Sequence record: OQ955832.1
Length of the DNA stretch: 57,756 bases
Direction: 5' to 3' (one strand)
Source: Escherichia phage vB_EcoS_PJ16
Shown here: positions 1 to 53,312 of the stretch, piece after piece
How positions within the stretch are numbered: the first letter of the stretch is position 1
How the letters are laid out: every line of letters starts with the position of its first letter
Program-made: the position numbers and the translations under genes
The notes under the pieces: model-generated
The model's database searches: none
What the model was told of the DNA's origin: nothing
The model's input: the letters and a program-made list of their open reading frames with translations, nothing else

Positions 1-206
1 TATCTTTTTATAGATAACATAGAAAACATAGATATAAAGAAGAAGTAGTATAGAAAGATAGAGATAGTACATATAGTGTATTAGCTGTAAATAGAGCTAA
101 AATAAAAGTCTGGGGGATACCTATTGTAATCTATGTTTTTATGCAAGTCTTTGAAATCATTGTGATTATGTGTTACGTATTTATGTATGTGATCGAAAAT
201 TAGTGC
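1..206. repeat. AT-rich non-coding repeat region (right half of hub A, continuing from the window end)
   Basis: No RBS-preceded ORF; short direct repeats (catagat, GCAYGTTGTG); positions 1-80 are homologous to 17749-17830. Confidence 0.6.
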
Positions 207-1493: not shown

Positions 1494-1540
1494 GTAATTT
1501 ACACTTCCCTGTGTAATCCGTCAAGAATTATTTTAAATTT
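1494..1540 (-). promoter_or_regulatory. sigma70-type promoter with UP element (conserved family)
   Basis: Minus strand: UP AT-tract, -35 TTGACG (1519-1524), 17-bp spacer, -10 TAAATT (1496-1501). Confidence 0.65.
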
Positions 1541-1860
1541 TGTTTCAGTAACTTGTACGTTTCAGGACATTTACCGGATCCGCGTTCACGTTCATAAGCG
1601 GCACTAATAACGTCCCAGTTTTCAATCACACCTTTAAACGCCGGACACTTTTCAGCAATCAATGGAAAACTGTTTCTGATTTCCGGTACAGCTTCAACCA
1701 GGAACCAGCAACGGCGAAAATCGGAAACGTCAAGGGGTGCTCTAAACTCCCAGTCGTAACCCATTTCATTACCCGTGTGAATACAGACCATCGTTTTAGA
1801 ACTTAGTCCGGTTTCACCAGAACATAACCACTGAATAATACGTTCCTGTTCTGTTTTCAT
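1528..1860 (-). CDS. Hypothetical protein (110 aa)
   Basis: Track ORF; ATGA-coupled to upstream gene. Confidence 0.5.
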   Translation of the reverse strand: MKTEQERIIQWLCSGETGLSSKTMVCIHTGNEMGYDWEFRAPLDVSDFRRCWFLVEAVPEIRNSFPLIAEKCPAFKGVIENWDVISAAYERERGSGKCPETYKLLKQNLK

Positions 1861-2024
1861 TTCGTATCACCTATCATGAGCAAACAATCTGGTGTGTTAA
1901 TCCAGAAACGATCACCAACATCCGGGGAAGCATCCCAGGGCATCTTTTCAGTTACTTCCAGTTCAAGATCACCACGGGTATTTTCAGCGATAATTTTTAC
2001 AGGTACACCGTCATAGGTACTCAT
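1857..2024 (-). CDS. Hypothetical small protein (55 aa)
   Basis: Not in track; ATG overlaps RdgC stop (ATGA) and its stop overlaps next start. Confidence 0.4.
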
Positions 2025-2935
2025 CGTTTTGCCTCCCCGCCGAGTGCCACCACAAGTTGTTTAATCAGCGCCTGAAGTTCACCTGTCATTAGTACAAAAT
2101 CAGCGTCAAATCGTGCCAGAACATCTTCAAGGTCAATATCGTCATTCTGTCCGATCAGTCCATCACAGAACTTCACACGGTTTAATGTCATGCTGTCAGT
2201 TAGCGTAAACGTTACCCGCTGCTGCCAGTCCAGAGCCAGCTTTGTAACGACTTTCCCTGCTTCAATATGTGTGGCTATTTCATCACTGGTTAAATCCTGT
2301 TTTTTAACGCGTGCAACACCGCCGTCAGTCAGGATTGCTTTCAGTTCAGCAGCGTCACCCATTGTAAAACCTGTTGGCGCGTTTCCTGAACGTACCCACT
2401 CCGTTGTTGTCAGTTCAACAGGGTTTTCAGTTGTCAGTGGGACTACAGGCAGACTACCCAGGGATTTACGCAACAGCGCTAACGCATCTTCAGCCCGTTT
2501 AGCACTGGACGCATCAACCACGATTAACCCGTTAGTGATGTCGATCCATAACTGTGTACGACTGTTTTTAACGAACACCCGTGGTAACAGACTGTGTAAC
2601 ACTTCGTCTTTCAGCGCGTCTTTCTCTGTTTTCTTCAGTTTACGCGCCTGTTCAGCTTCCAGTTTGGCGATTCGCGCGTTCAGATGTTGTTTAATGACCG
2701 GGCCAGGAATAATCTTTTCCTGTTTCTGAATAGTCAGCAGATATTGCCCATTAGCCTGGTGAACCAGTGTATGATGTTGTTCAGTTGCCGGAATCCATCC
2801 AGTACGCGCCATATCCTGTGAACCGCACGGATTGAATTGAAACGCACACAGGCTGTCTTCCAGCGTTGGTAAATGGGCCATTAATTGCATCGGGTTAGTC
2901 AGGCGATAAATGATTGCGTTTTTAAAGAAGTTCAT
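2021..2935 (-). CDS. rdgC: Recombination-associated protein RdgC
   Basis: 304 aa; N-terminus FKNxxxYRL and long blocks ([53 protein letters not shown]) match enterobacterial RdgC as recalled. Confidence 0.85.
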
Positions 2936-3129
2936 AGTTCAATGTCCTGTGGTTTGATAGTAACTTTTCCGTCAAGAACAACAGTGTTTACACCACTTAG
3001 TTTTTGTTCTTCGTATAAATCAAGTTCAACATTAATTCCGACGATTGAGGCTTCGTGTATCGTGCTGTTTAACTGTTTAATAAGATCTAAAATTCTACGC
3101 TGATAATCTTGTGCTTCTGTTAGTTTCAT
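2932..3129 (-). CDS. Hypothetical protein (65 aa)
   Basis: Track ORF; ATGA-coupled chain. Confidence 0.5.
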
Positions 3130-3323
3130 ACACCACCTTCATTTTTAATATAGTCAGCAACTAAATCTTTGACTTCTACAATTTTAACAGCACCATTATA
3201 ATCAACCTCAATATGACAGTGACCATAACGCGCCGCTGTTAACCTGGCGTCGTTCAGTATTTTTAAATCTTTCAATACTTGTTCAATTGCTTGTTGTTTA
3301 ATTACAGATTCGTGCACAGTCAT
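3126..3323 (-). CDS. Hypothetical protein (65 aa)
   Basis: Track ORF; ATGA-coupled chain. Confidence 0.5.
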   Translation of the reverse strand: MTVHESVIKQQAIEQVLKDLKILNDARLTAARYGHCHIEVDYNGAVKIVEVKDLVADYIKNEGGV

Positions 3324-3475
3324 TTCCTGTTCCTTCTTTTCTTCGCCTCGCGTCGGGCTTTTGCAATACCTGTTTTACGATGTGGTTGTTTACGGTCAGT
3401 AATAAGTCGTTGTGGTGGAATACCCCACAATGTGTTAGTGGAACTTAACAGTTTAATCGCGTAATCAAGAATCAT
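3320..3475 (-). CDS. Hypothetical small basic protein (51 aa)
   Basis: Not in track; ATG overlaps upstream stop; Lys/Arg-rich C-terminus. Confidence 0.4.
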   Translation of the reverse strand: MILDYAIKLLSSTNTLWGIPPQRLITDRKQPHRKTGIAKARREAKKRRNRK

Positions 3476-3765
3476 ACGTTCACCACTTTTAAATCAGGTG
3501 TCAGGCTACGATGGTCATGATGACCGTTCATCGTAAACGAGAAAGTGTAATCGCACTGCTCACCGTCGAACGTGAAGGGGATTTGAAACCCTGTATCGTC
3601 AGTGATGCGAACTTTAACCGGGTATTCAGCTTGCGGATCGACTGCTACAACAGTGCCGAACGGTTGAGATTTGCGACGTGCGAGAATTTCTAACAGTCGT
3701 GGACTGGTGATTTCTACGTGTTGACCAGTTTTAAACATGGTGATAACTCCAGTTGTTTTACACAA
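3472..3765 (-). CDS. Hypothetical protein (97 aa)
   Basis: Track ORF; first gene downstream of promoter at 3794. Confidence 0.5.
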   Translation of the reverse strand: MCKTTGVITMFKTGQHVEITSPRLLEILARRKSQPFGTVVAVDPQAEYPVKVRITDDTGFQIPFTFDGEQCDYTFSFTMNGHHDHRSLTPDLKVVNV

Positions 3766-3768
3766 ACT

Positions 3769-3815
3769 GAAGTCTATCTGATAATGTGTAAACCGTCAAG
3801 AATTATTTTAAACTG
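3769..3815 (-). promoter_or_regulatory. sigma70-type promoter with UP element (conserved family)
   Basis: -35 TTGACG (3794-3799), 17-bp spacer, -10 TAGACT (3771-3776), AT-rich UP element. Confidence 0.55.
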
Positions 3816-4051: not shown

Positions 4052-4441
4052 TTAACAGGGGTTTCGACTGGCATAAAACTTTGTACCGACTGGCATACGT
4101 TCCATGTTGAGTTTTCCACGTAGGTGTTTGTATGTTTCACCGGGAGAACGTAGTTCTGCTTCACACGGTCTTTCAACAATTTCACCCACGGGATCACCTA
4201 ACGCGCCTTTCCATCCTTCCCACATTGCAGTCATAGTGATAAACCAGACACTACCTAAACTGGCTTTCTTGTTCTCCCAGAACCAGTCTATGAACTCTAT
4301 CGACATTCCGTGCTGTTTTGCAATTTCATAACGGTCATCCACTTTTTTAACCCTCCACCCATATTTAGCACGATTCATAGCAGTCCGTTCATCATTCGTT
4401 GTGAACAGTACACGCCCGGATTTATGACAAATGTTCCACAT
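4052..4441 (-). CDS. Hypothetical protein
   Basis: Track ORF 4052-4474 (alternative GTG start); trimmed to first ATG; no recognisable motif. Confidence 0.4.
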   Translation of the reverse strand: MWNICHKSGRVLFTTNDERTAMNRAKYGWRVKKVDDRYEIAKQHGMSIEFIDWFWENKKASLGSVWFITMTAMWEGWKGALGDPVGEIVERPCEAELRSPGETYKHLRGKLNMERMPVGTKFYASRNPC

Positions 4442-4741
4442 TATAACTACCGCCTGAATAGTGATGTTTACCACACAACGATCTACTTACACGTTTCACA
4501 CTTGGCCCCTTCAGCCTTGTCTATTCCACACTGCAAATATTCATTTTCTTTTTGTTCTAATGTTTTTCCACGACACAAACCAACAGTGGTACTTTCTGGT
4601 GTCATTTTATATTTCTGATAGTTTGCTTCCAGTTGTCGAACACGGTGATAGTGTGCCGGATACATTGTGCGTAACATGTGGATTTCACCACCTGTCACCC
4701 GTGGTAAACTGTATAGAACAGTTACAAACGGACCGATAACC

Positions 4742-6505
4742 ATGAATAAGTTTACTGGAAATATTCATAATTACCCGCGCTGGCGTGATGCCTACGCAAA
4801 TGACGAACGTATCTGGCGAAAAGGTCAGCCACGACCAGATTACAAACAGTGTTACATTGACCGCATCAACCTGTTAAACCGTATGCGCACGGATCGGGCA
4901 ATTGTCCCGGTATTGAAAAAGTATTACGAAACAAACCCGGTAGCATTCATTCTCGACTGGGCGTTTACTTATGACCCGCGTAACGTCGGTACTGAGTACC
5001 CGCCTAACATGCCTTTCTGCCTTTTCGAACGTCAGATTGACATGGTTCAGTTTGTTTATGAAGCGCTTGAAGACAAAGAGAAAGGGCTTTGGGAAAAATC
5101 GCGAGACTATGGTGCGACCTGGGTAGCCTGTGGTTTGTCCGTGTGGGCGTGGCTGTATCGTCCCGGTTCTTCAGTTGGCTGGGGATCACGTAAAGAGCAG
5201 CTTGTTGATAAACTGGGCGACCCGGATAGTATTTTTGAAAAGATTCGCCAGATTATCCGCGCATTACCACCGGAATTACGTCCTGTTGGTCTGCGTGAAA
5301 AAGACCATCTGGTTTACATGAAATGTATCAACCCTGAAAACGGTGCAACAATTACTGGTGAAGCTGGCGATAACATCGGTCGTGGTGGTCGTAAATCTGT
5401 TTACTTTCTCGATGAAGCGGCACACGTAGATCGTCCTGAACTGATCGAAGCGTCGTTGTCAGCTAACACCAACGTCCGTATTGACATCAGTTCAGTTAAT
5501 GGCGTTGGTAACGTTTTTTATCGTAACCGTAAAGCGGGTCTGGAATGGGAACCGGGTAAGAAATTACCCCGTGGTAAATTGCGTGTCATGGTTCTGGACT
5601 GGCGTGATCACCCGGCTAAAGACGACGAATGGTATAAACGAGAAAAACAATCGTTCGCTGAAAAAGGTTTACAGCATATTTTTGCACAGGAAGTTGACCG
5701 CGATTATGCCGCTGCTGTTCAGGGTGTACTGATTAAAGCTGAATGGGTACGCGCTGCTTTTGACGCGTTCCGTGACACAGAATGGCGCAAAGCTAATGGA
5801 CTACTTACACCAACAGGTCAACGTATCGCCGGACAGGATGCCGCAGACGGTGGTGAAGACGCAAGCGCACTGGTAATTGCTCACGGTGTATTCCTGACAC
5901 ATCTGCAACTTGACCACAGGGGCGCTGAACTGGCTGCACCAGGAATGTTGACGATGGCTAATATGCTGGGTGTTGATGAATACTGGTACGAAGTTAACGG
6001 TGTTGGTACAGGCGTTAAAGTAGCGGCAAATGACCGAAAAGATACTTTACGCTTCCGTGTGCGTCCGTGGTTACCGAATGGAAAAGTTGTGGATCCGGGC
6101 GGTGATATTATCGGTGGTACGAAACCAGGTGACAAAGACCGTAAATCAAACAAAGATTATTTCTCAAATTATAAAGCACAGGCATCGTGGGCGTTACGCT
6201 TGCGTTGTCAGCGAATTTATAAATGGTATGTGGAAGGTCAACCACAGGATCCAGACGAAATCATTCTGATTGATCCATCACTGGAAAATGCACAACGGTT
6301 AGAAGCTGAGTTAAGCCAGCCAACGTATACCAGTAACGGTGCCGGGAAGATTGTGATCGACAAGAAACCAAACGGTAGTAAGTCACCAAACTTTTTCGAT
6401 GCTGCGGTTATTGCACTATCACCAAAACGTACCGAATTCGTTGAAGAACCGTTTACTGGCGGTGTGAATCCTGTTGGTACTCCTGAATACGGTGACATTT
6501 TTTAA
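4742..6505 (+). CDS. Terminase large subunit
   Basis: Track ORF 4667-6505, likely start ATG 4742; size and ATPase/nuclease-like organisation (DEAAH-like FLDEAAH) typical of TerL. Confidence 0.8.
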   Translation: MNKFTGNIHNYPRWRDAYANDERIWRKGQPRPDYKQCYIDRINLLNRMRTDRAIVPVLKKYYETNPVAFILDWAFTYDPRNVGTEYPPNMPFCLFERQIDMVQFVYEALEDKEKGLWEKSRDYGATWVACGLSVWAWLYRPGSSVGWGSRKEQLVDKLGDPDSIFEKIRQIIRALPPELRPVGLREKDHLVYMKCINPENGATITGEAGDNIGRGGRKSVYFLDEAAHVDRPELIEASLSANTNVRIDISSVNGVGNVFYRNRKAGLEWEPGKKLPRGKLRVMVLDWRDHPAKDDEWYKREKQSFAEKGLQHIFAQEVDRDYAAAVQGVLIKAEWVRAAFDAFRDTEWRKANGLLTPTGQRIAGQDAADGGEDASALVIAHGVFLTHLQLDHRGAELAAPGMLTMANMLGVDEYWYEVNGVGTGVKVAANDRKDTLRFRVRPWLPNGKVVDPGGDIIGGTKPGDKDRKSNKDYFSNYKAQASWALRLRCQRIYKWYVEGQPQDPDEIILIDPSLENAQRLEAELSQPTYTSNGAGKIVIDKKPNGSKSPNFFDAAVIALSPKRTEFVEEPFTGGVNPVGTPEYGDIF

Positions 6506-6511: not shown

Positions 6512-6545
6512 TGGCGGGATTATTCCCGCCCGTTTTCTTTTTAAT
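6512..6545 (+). terminator. Rho-independent terminator
   Basis: Stem ggcggga/cccgcc followed by T-rich tract. Confidence 0.65.
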
Positions 6546-6576
6546 TCTTGACAAATTACATTATAAATGTTTGTAA
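6535..6576 (+). promoter_or_regulatory. sigma70-type promoter (conserved family, -10 uncertain)
   Basis: TAATTCTTGACAAATTACA matches family consensus; -35 TTGACA 6548-6553; -10 position ambiguous. Confidence 0.45.
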
Positions 6577-6666
6577 ATTATCTGTTAGATTAATGTAACA
6601 CGTCTATACTCCTGCAGGTAACCAATCGGTTACAGTTAATTAACATTCTCTCACAGGAGTTTCAAC

Positions 6667-7365
6667 ATGTCTGACATGACTTTAGTTCCCACTGGCGGTT
6701 TCGGCGGTGAAGCTGGCGCGGCTGCACTTGGTGGTGGTATCGGCGGTCTTATCGGTTCCTGGTTCGGTAATGGCTGGGGTGGTGCCGGTGGTTGGGGTGG
6801 TCGTGGTATTGGTGCTGCTGAAGGTGTTGTTGTTCAGAACTCTCTGGATACTAACGCTATTCTTCAGGCTATTAATGCGGCGTCACTGGCTAACATTCAG
6901 GGTCAGAATGGTACTAACCTGACTGTTGAACGCTCAGCAGCTTCTACCTATAACGGTCTGACCCAACAAAACACACAAAACCTGCTGGCAAACGTTCAAG
7001 GTTTTGCAGGTCTGAACACTCAGATTCAGCAGGGTACTAACACGGTGACCAATGCGATCTGTGCGTCTGAAACTGCTGCACTGACTCGTTCTTTCCAGGC
7101 ACAGTTAGCGGCTGAGAAGTGTTGCTGTGAAACCAACCTGAATATCGAACGTCAGGCAGAAGCAACTCGTGCACTGATCCGTGATCAGTTCGCACAGTCT
7201 CAGGCTGTTCTGATTTGTGACCTGAAATCTCAGATTCAAACCCGTGACTTCCAGTTGTCTCAATTGTCACAAACGTCTCAGTTGGCGTGCAAAATTAACC
7301 AGGTCGATCAGCTTATTAACTTCAAGCTGCCTACTCCGCAAACTCCACCGACTGGCTGCTGCTAA
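6667..7365 (+). CDS. Glycine-rich protein with Cys clusters (unknown function)
   Basis: 232 aa; N-terminal GGxGG/GxxxG-rich tract, Q/N-rich middle, CCC and C-terminal GCC; good RBS AGGAG. Confidence 0.6.
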   Translation: MSDMTLVPTGGFGGEAGAAALGGGIGGLIGSWFGNGWGGAGGWGGRGIGAAEGVVVQNSLDTNAILQAINAASLANIQGQNGTNLTVERSAASTYNGLTQQNTQNLLANVQGFAGLNTQIQQGTNTVTNAICASETAALTRSFQAQLAAEKCCCETNLNIERQAEATRALIRDQFAQSQAVLICDLKSQIQTRDFQLSQLSQTSQLACKINQVDQLINFKLPTPQTPPTGCC

Positions 7366-7415
7366 TTGGTCAACTAAGCGCCTCTGTACGGGGCGCTTTA
7401 ACAGGAGATAAGAGT

Positions 7416-7775
7416 ATGCATTACAAACCGTATTACGTTATCAAAAAAGACGATGATGACGATGAAGAGGAAGATATAGAAATTCATCACCATCATCATT
7501 ATCACCACGGGCATCACCCGGACACGATGGGAGTATTTCATCATGATAGCTATGCTGGCGAACATGGTTCAGTTATGGCCCATGTTAAAGCACGTATGGA
7601 TAACCCTCCTTCGACTTGGGCGTCGTACCACGATAAGCCCGGCGGGATGATGTCCATTGTTGAAATGGAATATCGCGAACTGATGGAAGAAAAAACCGAA
7701 GGTTCGACGTCTGGTATTAAAAAAGAGCTAACGGATCTGGCTGCAGCCTGTATCCATGCACTTAAAAAGATGTAA
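7416..7775 (+). CDS. Acidic/His-rich protein (unknown function)
   Basis: 119 aa; DDDDDEEED followed by HHHHHYHHGHH; helical E-rich C-terminus. Confidence 0.6.
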   Translation: MHYKPYYVIKKDDDDDEEEDIEIHHHHHYHHGHHPDTMGVFHHDSYAGEHGSVMAHVKARMDNPPSTWASYHDKPGGMMSIVEMEYRELMEEKTEGSTSGIKKELTDLAAACIHALKKM

Positions 7776-7791
7776 CTAACAGGAAACCGAC

Positions 7792-8295
7792 ATGCAGAAT
7801 ATTAACGCAGGTATGGGTGTCACCCAGTTTAACGGTATGAAACCGCGAAGCACTATTAACATTGGTGGTGTGGAGTGGTCATTACGTCGGGATGCCACTG
7901 ACTCAACAACAATGTTTCCTCACCCGAAGGTAAGCTGGCTTAACGCTGGTTGTGAACCGATGGGTGATGGTCGTTTTCATTACTGTTGGATTTTGGGTGT
8001 AATTCCCCCGACACCGGGGACAATCGAACGACCTGTTAATGTGATGTATGTTGGTTTCCATCAATTTAAAATTAATATCGCACCTAATTCAATTAGTCAG
8101 GCTGATTTAGACAGGATGCATGTTTATGTCAGCGATACTTCTCATTTTGCTGGTGAATTTGTCAGTAAGTTTTTAGGTACAGAACCTGAACCTGTGGAAA
8201 CTCGTGAAAATATCAGCCCGTGGCCCCCGATGAATGATCCTCGTGAGCAACCAAAAGTAGCCAAAAATAAGGTAAACGAAGATGACGAAGAATGA
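7792..8295 (+). CDS. Hypothetical protein (167 aa)
   Basis: Track ORF with RBS. Confidence 0.55.
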   Translation: MQNINAGMGVTQFNGMKPRSTINIGGVEWSLRRDATDSTTMFPHPKVSWLNAGCEPMGDGRFHYCWILGVIPPTPGTIERPVNVMYVGFHQFKINIAPNSISQADLDRMHVYVSDTSHFAGEFVSKFLGTEPEPVETRENISPWPPMNDPREQPKVAKNKVNEDDEE

Positions 8296-8536
8296 AGGGG
8301 TAGACAAAGTAGTCGAAAGTCTGGGGTTACGCGCACACGTAATCGTAGACGAAGGTCACAGTCAAGAAGCGATCATGAAGTCGGCATTTAACGATTTTAA
8401 AGCGTTGGGTTCAATGAGTGGGATCATGGCAGTGATGACTACCGGGAAATTGAGCCAGCAACAGTTAGATCTGGCGCAACGTATCGCTGTGAAAGTAATT
8501 GCAGTTTTAGGTCTTAAAGAGTCAGAAAAAGCGTAA
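8282..8536 (+). CDS. Hypothetical protein (84 aa)
   Basis: Track ORF overlapping upstream gene end. Confidence 0.45.
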   Translation: MTKNEGVDKVVESLGLRAHVIVDEGHSQEAIMKSAFNDFKALGSMSGIMAVMTTGKLSQQQLDLAQRIAVKVIAVLGLKESEKA

Positions 8537-8549
8537 AAAGGGGGTTACT

Positions 8550-8714
8550 ATGTGTTGTAGAACATCGTGTTGTCTGGGAAGTCCTGCTACGCAATTTGGT
8601 CTTCTTCAGTCACAGATTGCACATACTCAGGCCGTTTTCAGAGGGTTTACCAGTCCGTTCATAGTACCATTACAGTTTTCCGCGTTCACGTTTAGACCTT
8701 TTGTATTTTACTGA
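8550..8714 (+). CDS. Cys-rich small peptide (54 aa, putative)
   Basis: Not in track; ATG 5 nt after AAGGGGG; begins MCCRTSCC; terminator follows. Confidence 0.3.
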   Translation: MCCRTSCCLGSPATQFGLLQSQIAHTQAVFRGFTSPFIVPLQFSAFTFRPFVFY

Positions 8715-10647: not shown

Positions 10648-10695
10648 AAAGCATAACTGCGTATCTGTAATCAGTCAAGAATTATTTTAACACCG
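10648..10695 (-). promoter_or_regulatory. sigma70-type promoter with UP element (conserved family)
   Basis: -35 TTGACT (10673-10678), -10 TATGCT-like, UP AATTATTTTAA. Confidence 0.5.
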
Positions 10696-10712: not shown

Positions 10713-10721
10713 TGATATAAC
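10713..10721 (+). promoter_or_regulatory. Extended -10 element TGATATAAC (putative late promoter)
   Basis: TGnTATAAY without recognisable -35, about 40 nt upstream of portal start. Confidence 0.35.
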
Positions 10722-12869: not shown

Positions 12870-12916
12870 GTAGGTTACACATCCTTGTGCAATCCGTCAA
12901 GAATTATTTTAGATTA
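12870..12916 (-). promoter_or_regulatory. sigma70-type promoter with UP element (conserved family)
   Basis: -35 TTGACG (12895-12900), 17-bp spacer, -10 TAACCT; leader nearly identical to promoter at 27470. Confidence 0.55.
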
Positions 12917-13152
12917 TCATAGACAGGCGGTAAACCCATTGCGGCCTGTACAGACCGTTTTTCGTATTCCTCCCGAAGTTTCTGAAGCTGTTCAATACCG
13001 ATGTCACAACCACGCATTATATCAGCGCACAGGTCGTTGTAGGTCGCTTCAGATTGTTTGCTGTGTGGGTAATCAACACAGGATGGATCTGCAATAATGA
13101 CTTTCGGCAGATACGCGACAGTATCGCCCATTGCGTTTTTAAATATCGTCAT
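12904..13152 (-). CDS. Hypothetical protein (82 aa)
   Basis: Track ORF. Confidence 0.45.
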   Translation of the reverse strand: MTIFKNAMGDTVAYLPKVIIADPSCVDYPHSKQSEATYNDLCADIMRGCDIGIEQLQKLREEYEKRSVQAAMGLPPVYDNLK

Positions 13153-14010: not shown

Positions 14011-14058
14011 AAATGTTAGTGTTACTGCTTGCAATGTGTCAAGAATTATTTTAAACTT
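14011..14058 (-). promoter_or_regulatory. sigma70-type promoter with UP element (conserved family)
   Basis: -35 TTGACA (14037-14042), 18-bp spacer, -10 TAACAT (14013-14018). Confidence 0.55.
14029..14057 (+). promoter_or_regulatory. Putative divergent plus-strand promoter overlapping the minus-strand element
   Basis: TTGCAA-17 bp-TAAACT on plus strand; same arrangement recurs at 44612. Confidence 0.35.
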
Positions 14059-15245: not shown

Positions 15246-15254
15246 TGATATAAT
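15246..15254 (+). promoter_or_regulatory. Extended -10 element TGATATAAT (putative late promoter)
   Basis: TGnTATAAT with no clear -35, immediately upstream of hairpin and head gene. Confidence 0.4.
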
Positions 15255-17171: not shown

Positions 17172-17545
17172 TACGCGCACCTCGATAGTCGTCTTAATTT
17201 AACGATCAACCTTGTGACTTTACTCCAGTCAGATTCAGTAAAGTCGTCCACATCTTTAGCCCATAACTCATTAACATGTCGTGGGTTATATGGTTCTTTC
17301 TTAACTGGCTATTTCCGTTTCTTTTTACCCATAGGTTATAACCCAAGTAAAAGTTTAAGCGCACATTTACGAGCATCGTTGACCATTTTTAATAATTCTT
17401 GTGTATCAATGGTGCGATCAGCGTGTTTAATCAGTTCATTCATACTATTAACCTCTTACTATTCCTACGACCACAGGTGCTGCGAAAATCATGAAAGCCA
17501 GTATGTAGTAAATCATCGCATGTCTCCTTTTTCTTCCTGTTAACC

Positions 17546-17592
17546 ACAGGGTAGTTGTGTCGGTGTAATTTGTCAAGAATTATTTTAAAGAT
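17546..17592 (-). promoter_or_regulatory. sigma70-type promoter with UP element (conserved family), left arm of divergent pair
   Basis: -35 TTGACA (17571-17576), 17-bp spacer, TACCCT; inverted copy of promoter at 17898. Confidence 0.55.
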
Positions 17593-17880
17593 ACAGCTAA
17601 TACAGAACGTGTACTAACTGCACATATTTCTACATAGGTTTCATGATTTTGAGTTGCAGCTAATACAGAACGTGTATTAGTAGATCATAGATTCATAGAT
17701 TTCGTCATGTTTATTTTTTAACCAACCTCTCTCTATCTTATTCTTTTTATTATCTTTTTATAATAAAAAGATAATAAACATAATAAACATAGATAAATAG
17801 AAGAGTAGTATAAGTAGTATAAGTTGCTGCAAGTAGGAGAGGTTTAAAAGGTATAGGGAGTCGCATACTTCCCATGAATC
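17581..17880. repeat. AT-rich non-coding repeat hub B
   Basis: No ORFs; direct repeats cagctaatacagaacgtgta x2, catagat repeats; homologous to window-end/start region. Confidence 0.65.
17746..17778. repeat. Perfect palindrome (16-bp arms, 1-nt centre)
   Basis: tttttattatctttttat a ataaaaagataataaaa read directly; core TTATCT...AGATAA also present at window junction. Confidence 0.8.
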
Positions 17881-17928
17881 TATACGTAAAATAATTCTTG
17901 ACGGATTACACCGACACAAATACCCTGT
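17880..17928 (+). promoter_or_regulatory. sigma70-type promoter with UP element (conserved family), right arm of divergent pair
   Basis: TAAAATAATTCTTGACGGATTACACC; -35 17898-17903, TACCCT at 17921-17926. Confidence 0.55.
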
Positions 17929-17956
17929 GGTTAAGAAAACAAGAAGGGTTGAATGT

Positions 17957-27444: not shown

Positions 27445-27492
27445 GTAGGTTACACGTCTTTGTGTAATCCGTCAAGAATTATTTTAAACGTT
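27445..27492 (-). promoter_or_regulatory. sigma70-type promoter with UP element (conserved family)
   Basis: -35 TTGACG (27470-27475), 17-bp spacer, TAACCT; leader paralogous to 12895 promoter. Confidence 0.55.
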
Positions 27493-34001: not shown

Positions 34002-36037
34002 ATCAATCCATAAATGGCATTGTGTATTACGACACCCCCAACAACAGAGGAAACATTGAAATTAATTTCAGCTTTGTAAGCTCCTGGTGGAACACAATCT
34101 ACCAAAGCATAAAAATTGAACGTGCCTCCTGCTGAGATGTTATATCCCATGGAGTCCGCGACAGCATTTCCTTGTTGGTCAAGGAACCTAAGTGACGCCA
34201 GGGTGGTTGTTGTATTTTTAGCCCAAAAACCAAGCTGAAAATAACGACCTGGCTCACAATCAATGATTGTTTGGGTGAAATTAGCTGCTGCGTCAGATGA
34301 TGGTACAGATAAAACAAAAGAAGTTGAAAACATTAAATCATTAGGAACATCGTTTGTTGTAGTAGCAGTGACAACTCCTGTTCCAGTTTGCGAGAGTGTC
34401 CAGTTAGATATGTTTAAAAACTGTCCTGAGCCATTACTGATGCTATTAATATAAGGGCTTACAATGCTCCCTAAATTCCAGTTACTTGTGATAAATCCTG
34501 CCCGTGGATAGCACCCTCTGGACATTACTTTTTTGCTCGCGCCACCTATCAACTGTCTTGTGGGAAATCCGGTAGCAATCGTTGTATTCCCATAGAGGGG
34601 TAACGAGCAATTATTTAGGCTAACAACCCCATCGCCGTTGCTAACAATAGGTACACTGGTATACCCGTCTGGGAGTAGTATCGTCGAATTACTGACGGTT
34701 AATCGTGAACTGCCATCCACAGTAAACCCAACGAAACTCTGACCAGGTTGGTACTCAATGTTACCGTTTGTGAAAACCACTGTTGCGTTATCTGATAACG
34801 CAACAGTAGGGTCAAAATATCCTGATTTTTTACCTGCCGGTAGAGAGCAGCTATCGAATATAAATTGACCATTAACAAACGTGAAAGGTCCACCGTTGTC
34901 AACCATCCAGCAGTGATTAAATTTTATAACCTCACCGGAATTCGCTGGTGAATTGAAAATAGCAGAATTTGTAAAACTTCTGGACAACGCGCATTTATCA
35001 AAAAGAATACGATATGCATTATCAAGAAACTCAATTCCGGCAGTTGAGATAAACCCACTATTAGATATTCTTAACTCTGATACTACACCACTGGTAGAGC
35101 CACCGATAGCCAATTTCCTGGAACCTTTTCCGACGAATGACACACCACTCATCAAAGCAGTTGCGTTAACTGCATCTCTGTTAATGTAATCCGCGCCTGT
35201 ATTAATAATGGTTAGGTAGTAGTCACCGGTTACAGATGCAGTTTCTGTTAAAGTACATTTATTTTTTCCAATAAGTGCGCCTTTTGCTATGTCGAAAATA
35301 ATCGGTGTTGTTATCTCACCAGAAACAGGAACCACACAGTCAAATCCGGCAGCGTTTATTTTGTTGATGAATACCGCCAAATCTTCGGTTCCAGTATAAC
35401 CAGCATCATACACGTCCACGGTGCCGTTGAAGAATTTTCTTTTCCATACCACACCGTTTCCGGGGAAGGTAACAATATTGTCTACAGTAGTAGTCGCGCT
35501 AACAGCTACCATAATACCACCACCAAAATTAAACCCGCTCACATACGAATCAAGAATTATGGAATCACCAATTGATCCTGATATCGATGATAACTCAGAA
35601 ACTGATGATACAGTCCCTATATAAGACAAACCATTTGATTTGTTTAAATCAGAACGTAACATTAAATCCGTCTGATTAACCCAGTGTGTAGCATCAATAC
35701 CACCCGTAGTTGCAGGTGTTGAACCAGGTGGAACAATTTTAGGCAACATACCCATCCACTGGTAATAATTACCTTCTGATTCATATAGTAGTGTTTCCCA
35801 ACGATGGTTAATAGTACTACCGCCTTCAAACGAACCGTCTGCAGGTTTAAAACCAACTGAACTAAAAAAACCATCCAGTGTTTTGTTAGTAACTGATTCG
35901 CCACGGATTGTATCGGTTGCTTCCAGTGCAGGTTTACCGGTAGCGTCACGACTTTTTGCAACGTGTTCAATATGTAAAATCGCTTGTTTGCCTGTTTTCA
36001 AATCATCAGCACTGATATAATCGTTACAGTTAGCCAT
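33998..36037 (-). CDS. Tailspike / receptor-binding protein with beta-helix-like repeats
   Basis: Track ORF 33998-36064 trimmed to ATG 36037 (GGAG RBS); Gly/Ser/Thr/Asn-rich repetitive beta-strand pattern. Confidence 0.6.
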   Translation of the reverse strand: MANCNDYISADDLKTGKQAILHIEHVAKSRDATGKPALEATDTIRGESVTNKTLDGFFSSVGFKPADGSFEGGSTINHRWETLLYESEGNYYQWMGMLPKIVPPGSTPATTGGIDATHWVNQTDLMLRSDLNKSNGLSYIGTVSSVSELSSISGSIGDSIILDSYVSGFNFGGGIMVAVSATTTVDNIVTFPGNGVVWKRKFFNGTVDVYDAGYTGTEDLAVFINKINAAGFDCVVPVSGEITTPIIFDIAKGALIGKNKCTLTETASVTGDYYLTIINTGADYINRDAVNATALMSGVSFVGKGSRKLAIGGSTSGVVSELRISNSGFISTAGIEFLDNAYRILFDKCALSRSFTNSAIFNSPANSGEVIKFNHCWMVDNGGPFTFVNGQFIFDSCSLPAGKKSGYFDPTVALSDNATVVFTNGNIEYQPGQSFVGFTVDGSSRLTVSNSTILLPDGYTSVPIVSNGDGVVSLNNCSLPLYGNTTIATGFPTRQLIGGASKKVMSRGCYPRAGFITSNWNLGSIVSPYINSISNGSGQFLNISNWTLSQTGTGVVTATTTNDVPNDLMFSTSFVLSVPSSDAAANFTQTIIDCEPGRYFQLGFWAKNTTTTLASLRFLDQQGNAVADSMGYNISAGGTFNFYALVDCVPPGAYKAEINFNVSSVVGGVVIHNAIYGLI
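36013..36021 (+). promoter_or_regulatory. Extended -10 element TGATATAAT (putative late promoter for lysis cassette)
   Basis: Third copy of TGATATAAY motif, 43 nt upstream of 36064 ATG, embedded in tailspike 5' end. Confidence 0.35.
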
Positions 36038-39748: not shown

Positions 39749-39787
39749 TGTTATCGCCTCAATAAGTTTTAAATAATTCTATACGGT

Positions 39788-41644
39788 TTACCGAAGTGGT
39801 GCAACGAGTTTTTCAGCTTCTTTGATGTAAAAATCATAATTGAGTGTTGCCCGGTTAAAACGTTTCATGTCGTTACATTCCGTGGTCAACCAACCTTTAC
39901 ACACGGACATGCGGCGTTCAGGCGCGTCAGGGTTCAGTTTCAGTGATTTTGCCAGCGGTGGCATGACTTTTGTCAACGGTGCACCATCTGTACTGACGTA
40001 ATAACGGGTAATGTTCTGAACCTGTTTATCACCCCATAATAACTTGCTGTTACGCGGTACTTTCGTCACCAACATAAAATCGTGAATGTCTTCGTGTGAT
40101 GTTATAAAATCACGAATGTCTTTATTGTGTACCAGTGCTGCTTCAGCCGCTTTTGCGACAACCTGCATACTGTGGTTTTGATGCCAACCAAGGTCAACAC
40201 TGTGGCAATAAGCACCTTTACGTTTAACTTTCTTACCACCTTCATAAACAGCGATGTAGTTATTTACATCGCGGATAAACATCACGTCATAAATCGCTTC
40301 TTCAAGCTGGAGTCTGGTTAATTTTTCCCACGCGTGACGAACCTGTTCTACTTGTCCGATAAATACTCGTGGTACGTAAACAGTAAGACCATCTGTGTTA
40401 GCCTGAATCATGGATAAACCAGGGATTTTCAGAAGTTCTTCAGCCAACATGCACAAAAGTAACTGTCCATTAATCGTAATAGCCATTGTATAAGCAGGAT
40501 CGTAGAATGGACTGTATACGTTATTACTGTCACCATACACACCGTTTAATGCCAGTTTTAACATTGCATTTTCTGGTGTACCTTTCGGGTAACTGGAACG
40601 CATGTCATAAACATTTTTATAAATGGTGCAAAATTGTTTTCCCAAATGTGCAGGGTAAAGTTCATTACTAATCGCAAGGTTTGGATAAAAACTGGCAACA
40701 TCCAAATCGATGATCACATAATTTTCAGTGGACCTTATAGTTTGAGATTCAATAGACCCGTGGATACCACCCGTACCAAAATCAAACGAGAACCCGTTAA
40801 TATCTGCGCTTAAATCAGTAAACACACCTTTTGTTTCAGTGATGACCTGTTGACGTAACCAGTTAAGAACACGATTAAATTCAGGCTGTTCAAAACGGAC
40901 ATAAGGGAAAATCACGCTGTTCAATGCGATTGATAGTCTGTGCGTCTGTCGTGGTTTTCTGCTACCCGGTTCGAAACATTGAATACCTGATTTTTCAAGT
41001 TCCATAATGAAATAGTCTTTACCGATTTTCGTGTCATTATGGTTCATGAAATTACGACCGTATTTAGCAGAAAGTTCACGACGAAAATCTATCAGCTTTT
41101 TACTGTGTTTATAAAACATCAAAGTCGCTTTCAAATCGTGTATCAGATATTGACGAAGCGTATCAATTTGAGAATTGGTTAAATAAGTCCCTGGTGTAAA
41201 CGGGAGGTCTTCAATGTTTTCCATTCTCATATTGAATTCAAGTGTTTTCAGACTTGTTCGTTTTGCCTGATTGTCGAAATGATGAATTTTATACAAATCA
41301 AGCTGGGGAACTATCCAGTCTTTTTCCCACACCATATGAGCAAAACGATTTTCATCACCAGCGTTAATTATCGAATCACCTTTTTTGTAAATGTCTGCGT
41401 TGGTGATATACATGATGTTGTTCAAAATAGAATGCTGAACAGGATAGTCGTAACCCAGATTGTTATAACCAACTTCTTCAGCACGATGTTCACGCAAATA
41501 TTCTGTGAACAGGTAAAAAGCCTGACGATCGTCGCGACGATGTGAAATCTCAAAAATATAAGGTGTTTCAGTTAATGCGTGAATAGCACCGAACAGGAAA
41601 ACATTAGGATAGTTTTCAATATCGTGAACGTAAGCATCTGACAT
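39788..41644 (-). CDS. DNA polymerase, family B-like (compact)
   Basis: 618 aa; motif A DLDVASFYPNL, motif B KLALNGVYG, motif C-like ANTDGL, exo I-like HDIEN. Confidence 0.75.
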   Translation of the reverse strand: MSDAYVHDIENYPNVFLFGAIHALTETPYIFEISHRRDDRQAFYLFTEYLREHRAEEVGYNNLGYDYPVQHSILNNIMYITNADIYKKGDSIINAGDENRFAHMVWEKDWIVPQLDLYKIHHFDNQAKRTSLKTLEFNMRMENIEDLPFTPGTYLTNSQIDTLRQYLIHDLKATLMFYKHSKKLIDFRRELSAKYGRNFMNHNDTKIGKDYFIMELEKSGIQCFEPGSRKPRQTHRLSIALNSVIFPYVRFEQPEFNRVLNWLRQQVITETKGVFTDLSADINGFSFDFGTGGIHGSIESQTIRSTENYVIIDLDVASFYPNLAISNELYPAHLGKQFCTIYKNVYDMRSSYPKGTPENAMLKLALNGVYGDSNNVYSPFYDPAYTMAITINGQLLLCMLAEELLKIPGLSMIQANTDGLTVYVPRVFIGQVEQVRHAWEKLTRLQLEEAIYDVMFIRDVNNYIAVYEGGKKVKRKGAYCHSVDLGWHQNHSMQVVAKAAEAALVHNKDIRDFITSHEDIHDFMLVTKVPRNSKLLWGDKQVQNITRYYVSTDGAPLTKVMPPLAKSLKLNPDAPERRMSVCKGWLTTECNDMKRFNRATLNYDFYIKEAEKLVAPLR

Positions 41645-44531: not shown

Positions 44532-44578
44532 TAACTTTAAAAGGTGTTGTGTAATCTGTCAAGAATTATTTTACACTC
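44532..44578 (-). promoter_or_regulatory. sigma70-type promoter with UP element (conserved family)
   Basis: -35 TTGACA (44557-44562), 17-bp spacer, -10 TAAAGT (44534-44539). Confidence 0.6.
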
Positions 44579-44593: not shown

Positions 44594-44641
44594 AGATGTT
44601 AGAGGAATAAGTTGCAATGCGTCAAGAACTATTTTAAACTT
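44594..44641 (-). promoter_or_regulatory. sigma70-type promoter with UP element (conserved family), tandem second copy
   Basis: -35 TTGACG (44620-44625), 18-bp spacer, -10 TAACAT. Confidence 0.55.
44612..44640 (+). promoter_or_regulatory. Putative divergent plus-strand promoter
   Basis: TTGCAA-17 bp-TAAACT; 37 nt upstream of helicase GTG start. Confidence 0.4.
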
Positions 44642-47355: not shown

Positions 47356-47396
47356 TGGTAATCTGCATAGAAATATTTTAAACGTAAGGAACTGTA

Positions 47397-50529: not shown

Positions 50530-50577
50530 GGACGTGTAAAATAATTCTTGACGAATTACAGATATGTGCGCTATAGT
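50530..50577 (+). promoter_or_regulatory. sigma70-type promoter with UP element (conserved family)
   Basis: TAAAATAATTCTTGACGAATTACA; -35 50548-50553, -10 TATAGT 50572-50577. Confidence 0.55.
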
Positions 50578-51905: not shown

Positions 51906-52297
51906 TAATAGTCGTTACAGGCGGTCGTGACTTCAACGACAGAACAGCGGTATTTTCAGCATTAGGGTTACTTCACAAACAATTCCCGGTTACCGAACTG
52001 ATTGAAGGCGGTGCATCAGGTGTTGATAACCTGTGTAAGCAATGGGCGCAATTACACGGTATTCCTGTACGTAGTTGCCCGGCAGCATGGGACGATCTGA
52101 CTGTACCAGGTGCGGTTGTAAAACAGGGTAAGCATGGGCCTTATAACGCTGTTGCAGGTCATCAACGTAATCAGGCAATGTTAGAGGGTGAACCACGCCC
52201 TACATACGGTGTTGTGTTCCCCGGTGGGCGTGGTACTGCCGACATGCATCGTCGTATGTTGAAAGCTGGTTTAACTGTGTGGGTTCCATATCCTTAA
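51902..52297 (+). CDS. SLOG/LOG-like Rossmann-fold protein (DUF2493-like)
   Basis: VVTGGRDF, GGASGVD and PGGRGTADM motifs. Confidence 0.5.
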   Translation: MIIVVTGGRDFNDRTAVFSALGLLHKQFPVTELIEGGASGVDNLCKQWAQLHGIPVRSCPAAWDDLTVPGAVVKQGKHGPYNAVAGHQRNQAMLEGEPRPTYGVVFPGGRGTADMHRRMLKAGLTVWVPYP

Positions 52298-52334
52298 AAT
52301 AATTCTTGACAGATTACCAACCTCCCCCGATAAT
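52290..52334 (+). promoter_or_regulatory. sigma70-type promoter with UP element (conserved family)
   Basis: TAAAATAATTCTTGACAGATTACC; -35 52306-52311, 17-bp spacer, -10 GATAAT 52329-52334. Confidence 0.6.
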
Positions 52335-52357
52335 TAGCCTCAGTTAACACACATGAG
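52335..52357 (+). promoter_or_regulatory. 5' leader hairpin overlapping SD (inverted version of hairpin at 15257)
   Basis: Stem gcctcag/gaggc; right arm contains GAGG SD of the 52369 gene. Confidence 0.45.
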
Positions 52358-52368
52358 GCTAAACACAA

Positions 52369-53136: not shown

Positions 53137-53312
53137 AAAACCGTAAAGCAAAGATTCTGTTAGTTCGTAGAAACGCTCCTGGCGTCTGGCAGTGGGTGAG
53201 ACTCAGCAACCGACGGATGGGGTTGATGAAATATTACGGGATGATGGATTGCAGTTTTTGCAAAAAAACCCAGCGCGGCGCAAAACCGCTGGAAAAACCA
53301 CTTTCGCATTAA
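53133..53312 (+). CDS. Hypothetical small basic protein, tandem paralog 1 (59 aa)
   Basis: Not in track; ATGA-coupled to ParB-like gene; NRKAKILLVRR...WVRLSNRRM shared with next gene. Confidence 0.35.
   Translation: MKNRKAKILLVRRNAPGVWQWVRLSNRRMGLMKYYGMMDCSFCKKTQRGAKPLEKPLSH

What the first reader, a model, noticed from the sequence alone, without database searches (positions are those of the whole stretch)
1494..1540. Genome-wide family of at least 13 near-identical promoter elements (TAAAATAATTCTTGACRGATTACA)
The same 25-30-bp element recurs with -35 hexamers at 1519, 3794, 6548, 10673, 12895, 14037, 17571, 17898, 27470, 44557, 44620, 50548 and 52306, in both orientations. Each has a TAnnnT-type -10 hexamer 17-18 bp downstream, except the 6548 copy, where the -10 is ambiguous. 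Each precedes a block of small early or accessory genes. The conserved GATTACA just after -35 and the identical UP tract suggest selection for more than RNAP binding, perhaps a shared regulator or a recombination hotspot for moron shuffling.
Basis: seen in the sequence. Interest (0 to 1): 0.6.

Follow-up and report, generated by a model that had tools for sequence, protein, structure and literature searches.

The report
Conserved early promoter family of a 9NA-like phage
A virulent 9NA-like coliphage starts its early and accessory gene blocks from 13 near-identical copies of one bacterial-type promoter; this is a familiar phage strategy, but part of the conserved sequence is not explained by what RNA polymerase is known to read.

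Summary
The window is a complete 9NA-like siphophage (Sashavirus/Nonanavirus). It holds 13 copies of ttTAAAATAATTC-TTGACr-gATTrCA; 11 share an exact 16-mer. Geometry fits sigma-70: a 17-18 bp spacer, a weak TAnnnT -10 with no TGn, then a short A-rich leader, RBS and start codon.

The ~27-bp block (-49 to -23) is under purifying selection. Orthologous copies in Salmonella 9NA and Klebsiella KP13-27 are 85-90% identical in the block but 64-69% in the flanks. Proteus Gorganvirus keeps TTTAAAATA, C-TTGAC and ATTACA in register.

The same block occurs once in unrelated temperate Klebsiella and E. coli prophages, upstream of a HicA/DUF1902 toxin-antitoxin pair. That context implies host polymerase suffices.

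Virion and lysis genes use a second class, extended -10 TGATATAAY without a -35.

Mosaic junctions are about 5-fold enriched at copies, and some indels are bounded by them. They account for only about 9% of junctions, and the excess over other gene junctions is marginal.

A shared regulator remains possible: gATTrCA is conserved, and two conserved copies lack a promoter. None was identified.

Verdict: a phage-specific early promoter family, a known kind and moderately interesting. The main 9NA genomics paper could not be read, so prior description is not excluded.

The parts
1496..1540 (-). Class A promoter copy 1: block, -35 TTGACG at 1519-1524, -10 TAAATT. It contains TTACAC-N6-GTGTAA. It drives a DUF7170 gene (1308-1460) and a 78-aa gene. 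The stop codon of upstream gene 1528-1860 lies inside the block.
3771..3815 (-). Copy 2: -35 at 3794-3799, -10 TAGACT. It heads the block of small genes plus RdgC (3738 down to 1528).
6532..6583 (+). Copy 3, divergent: only AATTC-TTGACA-AATTACA is kept and the -10 is ambiguous. It lies directly after the terL terminator hairpin (6513-6530) and heads genes 6667-8714.
10650..10694 (-). Copy 4: -35 at 10673-10678, -10 TATGCT. It heads leftward small genes (10619 down to 8748) and lies back-to-back with the class B portal promoter at 10713.
12872..12916 (-). Copy 5: -35 at 12895-12900, -10 TAACCT, with a near-palindrome TTGCAC-N6-GTGTAA. The stop codon of upstream gene 12904-13152 lies inside the block.
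14013..14058 (-). Copy 6: -35 at 14037-14042, spacer 18, -10 TAACAT. It heads the dUTPase block.
17540..17592 (-). Copy 7: -35 at 17571-17576, -10 TACCCT. It is one arm of a 48-nt inverted repeat with copy 8.
17882..17934 (+). Copy 8: -35 at 17898-17903, -10 TACCCT. It heads a 115-aa ORF (17957-18304) that runs into the prohead protease and head genes. 9NA and KP13-27 have no copy at this position.
27447..27491 (-). Copy 9: -35 at 27470-27475, -10 TAACCT, with TTACAC-N6-GTGTAA. It drives a superinfection-immunity gene and a T5orf172-type gene.
44534..44578 (-). Copy 10: -35 at 44557-44562, -10 TAAAGT. It is the proximal member of a tandem pair heading the leftward replication block (250-aa gene, exonuclease, ssDNA-binding protein, DNA polymerase).
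44596..44641 (-). Copy 11: -35 at 44620-44625, one mismatch in the 16-mer, -10 TAACAT. It is the distal member of the tandem pair, 63 bp upstream of copy 10.
50532..50577 (+). Copy 12: -35 at 50548-50553, spacer 18, -10 TATAGT. It lies after the primase gene and heads rightward accessory genes.
52290..52334 (+). Copy 13: -35 at 52306-52311, -10 GATAAT. Its first TAA is the stop codon of gene 51902-52297. It drives a ParB-HTH gene through a leader with a conserved hairpin.
39764..39793 (+). Degenerate copy TTTTAAATAATTC-TATACG-GTTTACC, with no usable -35 or -10. It is antisense to its neighbours, lies in the 39-bp gap after the DNA polymerase stop codon, and is conserved at the same place in all six genomes.
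47356..47385 (-). Degenerate copy TTTAAAATATTTC-TATGCA-GATTACC, antisense, in the gap after the helicase gene. It is found in 5 of the 6 genomes. In 9NA the flanks are perfect but TTGACA has become TAAACA.
10713..10721 (+). Class B promoter (context, not part of the family): extended -10 TGATATAAC, 40 nt upstream of the portal ATG, conserved in all six genomes.
15246..15254 (+). Class B: TGATATAAT upstream of the head-morphogenesis gene (15284), conserved in 5 of 6 genomes.
36013..36021 (+). Class B: TGATATAAT upstream of the holin/lysis genes (36064), conserved in all six genomes.

Best explanation
The 13 elements are the phage's main class of host sigma-70 promoters for early, replication and accessory genes.

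Each is a compact expression cassette. A 27-bp recruitment block comes first: an A-rich proximal UP-like tract, TTC, then a near-perfect -35 TTGACr followed by gATTrCA. A variable 10-11 bp follows, then a deliberately weak -10 (TAnnnT, no TGn), then a ~25-nt A-rich leader with a Shine-Dalgarno sequence and the start codon.

Inferred: recruitment of RNA polymerase through sigma region 4 and the alpha C-terminal domain is maximised, while the -10 sets each promoter's individual strength.

Virion and lysis genes use a different class that does not depend on a -35 (extended -10 TGATATAAY). The two classes could therefore be switched by anything that acts on the -35/UP block. At the portal locus the two lie back-to-back and would compete for polymerase (inferred).

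Because the block is a 27-bp exact repeat heading gene cassettes, it also serves occasionally as a crossover site for gain, loss and exchange of cassettes.
For: Repeat is real and far beyond chance.

Geometry across 77 copies in six genomes: spacer of 17 bp in 55 and 18 bp in 21; -10 reads T70 A73 nnn T72; 0 of 77 have TGn; the distance from the -10 to the start codon has a median of 31.5 nt; the leader is 46% A.

All copies are co-oriented with a downstream gene that has an RBS. They head every leftward small-gene block and the leftward (DNA polymerase) replication block.

The products of the first genes downstream of the copies are of unknown function; the blocks they head also include dUTPase, RdgC, a superinfection-immunity protein and a ParB-HTH protein.

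Purifying selection: block identity is 85-90% against 64-69% in the flanks at orthologous sites versus KP13-27 and 9NA. The core AAATAATTCTTGAC is near-invariant in all six genomes. A variant is kept in register in Proteus phages.

Host polymerase suffices (inferred from context): the same 26-27 nt block lies upstream of a DUF1902/HicA toxin-antitoxin pair in an E. coli prophage and in temperate Klebsiella phages that share no genes with this phage.

Second class: TGATATAAY is conserved upstream of the portal and holin genes in all six genomes and of the head-morphogenesis gene in five of six. The Vibrio relative has 7 TGATATACT, all upstream of virion genes.

Recombination: 66 of 720 block ends lie at copies against 13.2 expected, and junctions lie in or beside the block.
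Against: No transcript 5' ends, RNA-seq or in vitro data exist for any member, so both promoter activity and 'early' timing are inferred.

The invariance of gATTrCA, and of the exact UP sequence, exceeds what polymerase contacts are known to demand.

Two conserved copies have no -35 or -10.

Copy 17898+ reads into head genes, and copy 6548 has no clear -10.

Promoters for terS, terL, the tape-measure gene, the head operon in 9NA, and the helicase-primase genes were not found, so the two-class scheme is incomplete.

The class B motif is not enriched by count alone (4 observed vs 2.2 expected).
Confidence: 0.8

Rival explanations
1. The block is a promoter and also an operator. A conserved phage-encoded protein, or a phage-modified polymerase, reads the AAATAATTC and gATTrCA parts to activate or shut off all class A promoters together. 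That would time the switch to the class B virion promoters, in the manner of T4 AsiA/MotA.
For: gATTrCA is conserved across Escherichia, Salmonella, Klebsiella and Proteus phages, outside any known polymerase contact.

The lineage-specific change at -39 to -37 (ATT to TGG) is shared by several copies within the Proteus genomes.

The Vibrio relative has its own conserved string in the same position.

The degenerate copies at 39780+ and 47369- keep the flanks but lack both -35 and -10, as expected for pure binding sites.

Inverted partners of TTACAC occur at 5-6 of 13 loci against 0.3 expected.

The promoter architecture fits this logic: class A depends on the -35, class B does not.
Against: No DNA-binding, anti-sigma or MotA-like protein was found among about 50 products scanned. 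Only a ParB-HTH protein and NinH turned up.

The spacing of the inverted partners is inconsistent (6, 22 or 31 nt, or upstream), which does not fit one dimer geometry.

The block works, presumably, in prophages that lack all 9NA-like genes.
Confidence: 0.3
2. The primary selected role of the repeat is as a recombination substrate, a mobile regulatory cassette like the T4-type PeSLs. On this view the sequence is kept identical so that promoter-led gene cassettes can be shuffled, and promoter function is secondary.
For: Junction enrichment at copies.

The RdgC cassette is bounded by two copies in the window but there is a single chimeric copy in 536P12 and 9NA, with the crossover after TTGACGG.

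A cassette that is present in relatives and absent here starts 4 nt from the block.

The block has been transferred to unrelated prophages.

Published precedent: PMC2839356.
Against: Only about 9% of junctions are at copies. Compared with other gene junctions the excess is marginal (p=0.06).

Homogenisation for recombination would allow lineages to drift apart, yet the same sequence is held from E. coli phages to Klebsiella phages.

There is no conserved stem-loop.

27 bp is short for efficient homologous exchange.
Confidence: 0.15
3. The copies are not promoters but binding sites for some other process, such as replication, partition (a parS for the ParB-like protein) or packaging.
For: A ParB-HTH gene lies directly downstream of copy 52306+. 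Non-promoter copies exist.
Against: The strict -35 / 17-18 bp / -10 / leader / RBS / ATG geometry and the co-orientation with genes at all 13 sites are not expected for such sites.

The block also sits upstream of a toxin-antitoxin operon in prophages.
Confidence: 0.04

Closest known systems
T4-type early promoters and PeSL (promoter-early stem-loop) cassettes of RB49/phi1 (Arbiol et al. 2010, PMC2839356; PMC4122927)
   Same: Both are many near-identical strong sigma-70-like promoters with an AT-rich tract upstream of the -35. Both are placed ahead of small genes of unknown function, and both are used as crossover sites for insertion, deletion and replacement of gene cassettes.
   Different: This element has no conserved stem-loop or terminator component. 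The conserved part is a 27-bp block ending just after the -35, and the -10 is weak and variable. The host phage is a 58-kb siphophage in which these cassettes interrupt the virion gene order. Recombination at copies accounts for a minority of junctions. No mini-circles were tested.
UP-element plus consensus -35 promoters of E. coli (rrnB P1 type; proximal UP subsite AAAAAARNR at -46 to -38; classical 'tcTTGACat') - from my knowledge of Estrem/Ross/Gourse and Hawley & McClure
   Same: An A-rich tract at -45 to -39 in fixed register with TTGAC, preceded by TC, is consistent with contact between the alpha C-terminal domain and sigma region 4.
   Different: There is no distal UP subsite. The exact sequence is invariant, whereas UP elements are degenerate. 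There is an additional conserved gATTrCA at -29 to -23. This comparison was not tested here.
T4 AsiA/MotA temporal switch
   Same: One promoter class depends on the -35, and a second class (extended -10) does not. That is the arrangement that makes inactivation of sigma region 4 an effective switch.
   Different: No AsiA or MotA homologue was detected. No MotA-box-like element was seen at class B promoters. This is an analogy of logic only.
Morons of temperate phages (promoter-gene-terminator units)
   Same: Promoter-led cassettes are inserted between existing genes, ending at a pre-existing terminator. The same block heads a toxin-antitoxin moron in prophages.
   Different: Here the phage is virulent, and one promoter sequence is reused for all cassettes and also for core replication genes.

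Membership tests
Sigma-70 (housekeeping) promoter | -35 hexamer close to TTGACA | tested here: met
   All 13 window copies have TTGAC[GAT]. 73 of 77 copies across six genomes have it; the exceptions are TAGAC, TTGAT (twice) and TTGGC.
Sigma-70 (housekeeping) promoter | -10 hexamer with T-12, A-11 and T-7, placed 16-18 bp from the -35 | tested here: met
   The spacer is 17 bp in 55 copies, 18 bp in 21 and 16 bp in 1. T70/A73/T72 of 77. Copy 6548 is ambiguous.
Sigma-70 (housekeeping) promoter | Transcription starts 6-9 nt downstream of the -10 with sigma-70 holoenzyme | not testable with these tools
   No transcript data were found for any member of this phage group.
Sigma-70 (housekeeping) promoter | Co-oriented with, and upstream of, a translatable gene | tested here: met
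   11 of 13 copies have an RBS and start codon 24-46 nt after the -10. Copy 44625 is followed by copy 44562, and copy 6548 is followed by the ATG at 6667.
UP-element-containing promoter | A/T-rich tract at -40 to -60 that binds the alpha C-terminal domain and raises activity | tested here: inconclusive
   TAAAATAAT at -46 to -38 resembles the proximal subsite consensus. There is no conservation at -57 to -47. Binding and activity cannot be tested here.
PeSL mobile regulatory cassette (T4-type phages) | Strong sigma-70-like early promoter with an AT-rich upstream tract, repeated many times | tested here: met
PeSL mobile regulatory cassette (T4-type phages) | An associated stable stem-loop that acts as a terminator or attenuator | tested here: not met
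   Folding -85 to +25 of all 13 copies shows no shared hairpin; z-scores run from -3.3 to +1.9 and most are near 0. Only copy 6548 follows a terminator. The 6-bp TTACAC/GTGTAA stems occur at 3 loci only.
PeSL mobile regulatory cassette (T4-type phages) | Recombination between copies produces insertion, deletion or replacement of the flanked genes | tested here: met
   The RdgC cassette is bounded by two copies against a single chimeric copy in 536P12 and 9NA. 66 of 720 ends lie at copies against 13.2 expected. The effect is modest.
PeSL mobile regulatory cassette (T4-type phages) | Mini-circles formed by exchange between neighbouring copies | not testable with these tools
   This needs inverse PCR on infected cells.
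Operator of a dimeric repressor | Inverted half-sites at fixed spacing, shared by the regulated promoters | tested here: not met
   Partners of TTACAC are enriched (18 of 77 against 1.8 expected), but they lie at gaps of 6, 10, 22 or 31 nt or upstream, and are absent from about half of the loci.

The most novel reading that the evidence does not exclude
The 27-bp block is read by something besides polymerase: a conserved, still unidentified phage factor that shuts off all class A promoters at the early-to-late switch.

On this reading the identical block upstream of HicA/DUF1902 toxin-antitoxin modules in E. coli and Klebsiella prophages would be promoter mimicry. When an invading 9NA-like phage silences its own early promoters, it would also silence the antitoxin-toxin operon. 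That would free the toxin and abort the infection.
Probability: 0.07. Interest if true: 0.75.

Novelty: new member of a known kind. Interest (0 to 1): 0.38.

Why it matters
It gives a nearly complete, testable transcription map for an understudied phage group. That group includes Bas82 of the BASEL collection and the plasmid-dependent phage PDP46.

The map has two parts: one reused early promoter cassette, and a separate class of -35-independent promoters for virion and lysis genes.

It explains how small gene blocks can sit, in the opposite orientation, between virion assembly genes. It also shows how those blocks are gained and lost.

The block is a compact, apparently very strong, portable promoter half. 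It may be useful for engineering.

The conserved gATTrCA and the non-promoter copies point to a regulator or a polymerase contact that has not been described.

Tried and rejected
1. Candidate late-gene motif TAAACTGTRTA: not enriched (6 observed vs 3.7 expected), so dropped.

2. TGATATAAT by count alone: not significant. It was kept only because of its position and its conservation across genomes.

3. Hairpin or terminator as part of the element: rejected. One copy is annotated as a 'terminator' in the AVIO78A and Solent records. In AVIO78A the feature lies on that copy's TTACAC-N6-GTGTAA stem, and I read this as a mis-call.

4. Rfam scan of the window: no family reached its threshold.

5. Host promoter or host-factor site: the E. 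coli, Salmonella and Klebsiella representative genomes have no copy, and the 22 hits in 185,579 species are scattered background. Only 8 of 5,426 complete E. coli genomes carry a partial copy; the one examined lies in a prophage-like region. By eye, the IHF, Fis, CRP and DnaA-box consensus sequences do not fit (my knowledge, not computed).

6. The 'large inversion' in Proteus phage Isfahan as a test of recombination between inverted copies: the record differs by segment order rather than inversion, it is flagged UNVERIFIED_ORG, and one junction lies inside a gene. Not used.

7. Regulator search by Pfam and PHROGs on about 50 products found no candidate beyond a ParB-HTH protein and NinH.

8. 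Zeng et al. 2019 (J Virol, 9NA-like phage genomics) could not be opened by DOI, PMC id or PubMed id.

Full report
**What the window is.** The 57,756-bp window is a complete or nearly complete genome of a virulent 9NA-like siphophage. It is 96-97% identical to Sashavirus BDX09P1 and to Escherichia phage KarinMuster (Bas82). It is about 81-88% identical to Salmonella phages 9NA, Sasha, Sergei and Solent, and about 80% identical to a group of Klebsiella phages.

A crude gene map (refined) shows the unusual layout already noted for 9NA (PMC4153490). The virion genes read rightward: terS, terL, portal, head, tail, tape measure and tail tip. Blocks of small leftward genes interrupt them repeatedly. 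A leftward replication block (ending in the DNA polymerase) and a rightward helicase-primase-accessory block follow.

- TTGACRGATTACA with up to 2 mismatches gives 16 hits against 4.35 expected, and none of 100 shuffles reach 16. Three of these hits lack the upstream tract and are chance matches.
- Eleven share an exact 16-mer, TAAAATAATTCTTGAC, and a twelfth has one mismatch.
- Copy 6548 keeps only AATTC-TTGACA-AATTACA.
- A weight-matrix scan adds two degenerate copies, at 39780+ and 47369-.

**Anatomy.** Information content is high and continuous from about -49 to -23: ttTAAAATAATTC TTGACr gATTrCA. Across 77 copies in six genomes:
- the spacer is 17 bp in 55 copies and 18 bp in 21;
- the -10 keeps only T-12 (70/77), A-11 (73/77) and T-7 (72/77), and its middle positions are often C;
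- no copy has a TGn extension;
- the distance from the -10 to the start codon has a median of 31.5 nt;
- the leader is 46% A and 11% T.

Every copy points at a gene with a ribosome-binding site. In four places the promoter overlaps the 3' end of the preceding gene. In three of these the stop codon lies inside the block, using one of its TAA triplets, and in the fourth the TAG of the -10 hexamer is the stop.

Subfamilies share homology as far as the start codon. One example is the 48-nt inverted repeat formed by copies 17576- and 17898+. The repeated unit is therefore a whole expression cassette.

**What the copies drive.** They head all the leftward small-gene blocks, the leftward (DNA polymerase) replication block (as a tandem pair) and two rightward accessory blocks. 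The products of the first genes downstream of the copies are of unknown function. The blocks they head also include RdgC, dUTPase, a superinfection-immunity protein, a T5orf172-type protein, a YspA/SLOG protein, a ParB-HTH protein and an HD-domain protein. This gene content fits early or middle expression. The timing is inferred, because no transcript data exist for the group.

**Selection on the block.** Each of the six whole genomes has 11-15 good copies. AAATAATTC-TTGAC is near-invariant in all of them, including Klebsiella phage KP13-27, whose genes are only about 75-80% identical at nucleotide level.
- At orthologous sites the block is 85% identical (KP13-27) and 90% identical (9NA). The adjacent upstream DNA is 64% and 68% identical, and the downstream DNA 68% and 69%.
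- Homogenisation within a genome cannot explain the same sequence being held across lineages. This is purifying selection.
- Proteus phage PM-CJR belongs to another genus (Gorganvirus; portal 60% identical at protein level) and has the same alternating layout. It has at least 11 copies of a variant, TTTAAAATATGGC-TTGACA-nATTACAg. TTTAAAATA, C-TTGAC and ATTACA are retained in register, and only -39 to -37 differ as a group.
- A Vibrio relative (portal 42% identical) has its own conserved string after the -35: TTGACA-nn-yGTAAC-GGT.

**Distribution outside the group.**
- In IMG/VR, the 19-base core AAATAATTCTTGACNNATTNCA is multi-copy only on contigs homologous to the window.
- In the phage database it is multi-copy (6-13 places per record) only in 9NA-like records.
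- One unrelated lineage carries a single copy identical over 26-27 nt. These are temperate Klebsiella phages or prophages, and the copy lies just past the tail-fibre gene. Identity is confined to the block, and the cargo has no homologue in 9NA-like genomes.
- In an E. coli prophage the block lies 44 nt upstream of a DUF1902 (HicB-like) gene followed by a HicA toxin gene.
- Bacterial representative genomes give only 22 scattered single hits in unrelated AT-rich taxa, and none in E. coli, Salmonella or Klebsiella. Only 8 of 5,426 complete E. coli genomes carry a partial copy.

The block is therefore not a host regulatory site. It is a portable unit, and in a lysogen it must work with host polymerase alone (inference from context).

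**A second promoter class.** TGATATAAY is an extended -10 with no recognisable -35. It lies 35-45 nt upstream of the portal, head-morphogenesis and holin start codons. It is conserved at the portal and holin sites in all six genomes, and at the head-morphogenesis site in five.

The Vibrio relative has seven TGATATACT, all on the virion-gene strand and each just upstream of an ATG. Three of them lie back-to-back with leftward promoters.

By count alone the motif is not significant in the window. The case rests on position and conservation.

This gives a two-class scheme. Class A depends on UP and the -35 and has a weak -10. Class B does not depend on a -35. At the portal locus the two are 35 bp apart and divergent, so two polymerases would overlap there (inference).

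The scheme is incomplete. I could not identify promoters for terS, terL, the tape-measure gene or the helicase-primase genes.

**Recombination.**
- Against five relatives, 6 of 130 unique alignment-block ends fall inside a copy, where about 1 is expected. Against other gene junctions the excess is marginal (8/10 vs 36/74, p=0.06).
- Over all 15 genome pairs, using each genome's own copies, 66 of 720 ends lie at copies against 13.2 expected. These counts are not independent, because the genomes share ancestry.
- At nucleotide level there are three informative junctions:
  - The RdgC cassette (window 1528-3738) is bounded by copies 3799- and 1524-. Phages 536P12 and 9NA have a single copy there, and in 536P12 the crossover comes right after TTGACGG.
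  - A leftward cassette that relatives carry between the major tail gene and the chaperone gene starts 4 nt upstream of its block and ends at a terminator. The window lacks it.
  - The copy that relatives carry upstream of terL is missing here, with the break 17 nt from the block.
- This behaviour resembles the PeSLs of T4-type phages (PMC2839356), but it accounts for only about 9% of junctions. The element also lacks the PeSL stem-loop.

**Is there more than polymerase binding?** Four observations point that way.
- gATTrCA is conserved across four host genera.
- The UP tract is invariant rather than merely A-rich.
- Two conserved copies have intact flanks but no -35 or -10. In 9NA one of them has 16/16 upstream bases and a perfect GATTAC, but TTGACA has become TAAACA.
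- Inverted partners of TTACAC are 10-fold enriched, though at inconsistent spacing.

Two observations point against it. No regulator candidate emerged. And the block is used in prophages that share no genes with these phages. I rate a dedicated factor at about 0.3.

**Prior knowledge.**
- The 2014 9NA genome announcement does not mention promoters.
- The motif string is absent from the open full-text library.
- The AVIO78A paper counts 'seven promoters'. Its GenBank record labels a few copies only as generic TTGACA-N15-18-TATAAT matches.
- The main genomics paper on the group (Zeng et al. 2019) could not be read, so an earlier description cannot be excluded.

**Verdict.** This is a real, strongly selected family of phage early promoters. 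It is a known kind of feature, with some unexplained details that experiments could resolve.

Noticed in passing
window 10713-10721 (+), 15246-15254 (+), 36013-36021 (+); L105 (Vibrio phage) 3796, 5243, 15447, 16816, 19155, 19656, 23341 (+): There is a second promoter class, extended -10 TGATATAAY (TGATATACT in the Vibrio relative) without a -35, lying 30-45 nt upstream of virion and lysis gene start codons. It is conserved across genera by position, although the count alone is not significant.
   Followed up: partly
window 17594-17613, 17657-17676 (+), 57594-57613 (-), 77-87 (-), 57643-57653 (+): A repeat family CAGCTAATACA[GC]AACGTG[TC]A is confined to two AT-rich non-coding regions. One lies between the divergent copies 17576-/17898+ upstream of the head genes. 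The other spans the window ends upstream of terS. These may be late-regulator, origin or pac-related sites. A 24-nt near-palindrome lies at 17738-17786.
   Followed up: partly
window 39764-39793 (+) and 47356-47385 (-): Two degenerate copies of the block lack both a -35 and a -10. They are antisense to their neighbours and sit in the short gaps after the DNA polymerase and helicase genes. The 39780+ copy is found at the same place in all six genomes and the 47369- copy in five, including 9NA and KP13-27.
   Followed up: partly
L107 (E. coli NZ_CM129878) 3501-3526; L018 4741-4762; L081 (Klebsiella phage ST512-KPC3phi13.3): The same 26-27 nt block occurs as a single copy upstream of a DUF1902 (HicB-like)/HicA toxin-antitoxin pair, or of other variable cargo, in unrelated temperate phages and prophages, just past the tail-fibre genes.
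   Followed up: partly
window 44781-45809 within ORF 44677-47355: The helicase ORF is 892 aa and carries an in-frame insertion of about 1,030 bp that is absent from all relatives. It may be an intein or a homing-endonuclease insertion.
   Followed up: no
window 4052-4743 (-): This region replaces the leftward promoter copy and small genes that relatives carry just upstream of terL. Two adjacent ORFs (4052-4474 and 4483-4743) might be a split or frameshifted endonuclease-like gene.
   Followed up: no
window 21821-22573: This 753-bp stretch in the late region has no convincing ORF and differs between close relatives. A promoter-like TATAACTATTCTTGAC lies at 21806, and the corresponding site is annotated as a promoter in AVIO78A. 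No Rfam family matches it.
   Followed up: partly
window 52335-52361: A 5'UTR hairpin (tagcctcagttaacacacatgaggcta) lies between copy 52306+ and the ParB-HTH gene. It is conserved in 9NA and KP13-27, with a compensatory change of the outer base pair (cagcctca...tgaggctg).
   Followed up: no
window about 53134-54423: These accessory genes are 95-99% identical to genes of phage P7 (upf89) and of Stx/lambdoid prophages, which indicates recent horizontal exchange with temperate phages.
   Followed up: no
KC139633 (1-30) and KC139635 (2153-2182), Salmonella phage FSL SP-062 draft contigs: These draft contigs end exactly in block copies, so the repeat broke that assembly. One copy is annotated as a 'terminator' in both the AVIO78A and Solent records; in AVIO78A the feature lies on the TTACAC-N6-GTGTAA stem.
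   Followed up: no
L104 (Proteus phage PM-CJR) 25437 (-), 38478 (-): Block variants carry TATAC in place of TTGAC. In the copy at 38478, TTGCAA-N17-TATACT would make the TATAC the -10 of a shifted promoter. The same TATAC substitution is seen at window 39780+.
   Followed up: no
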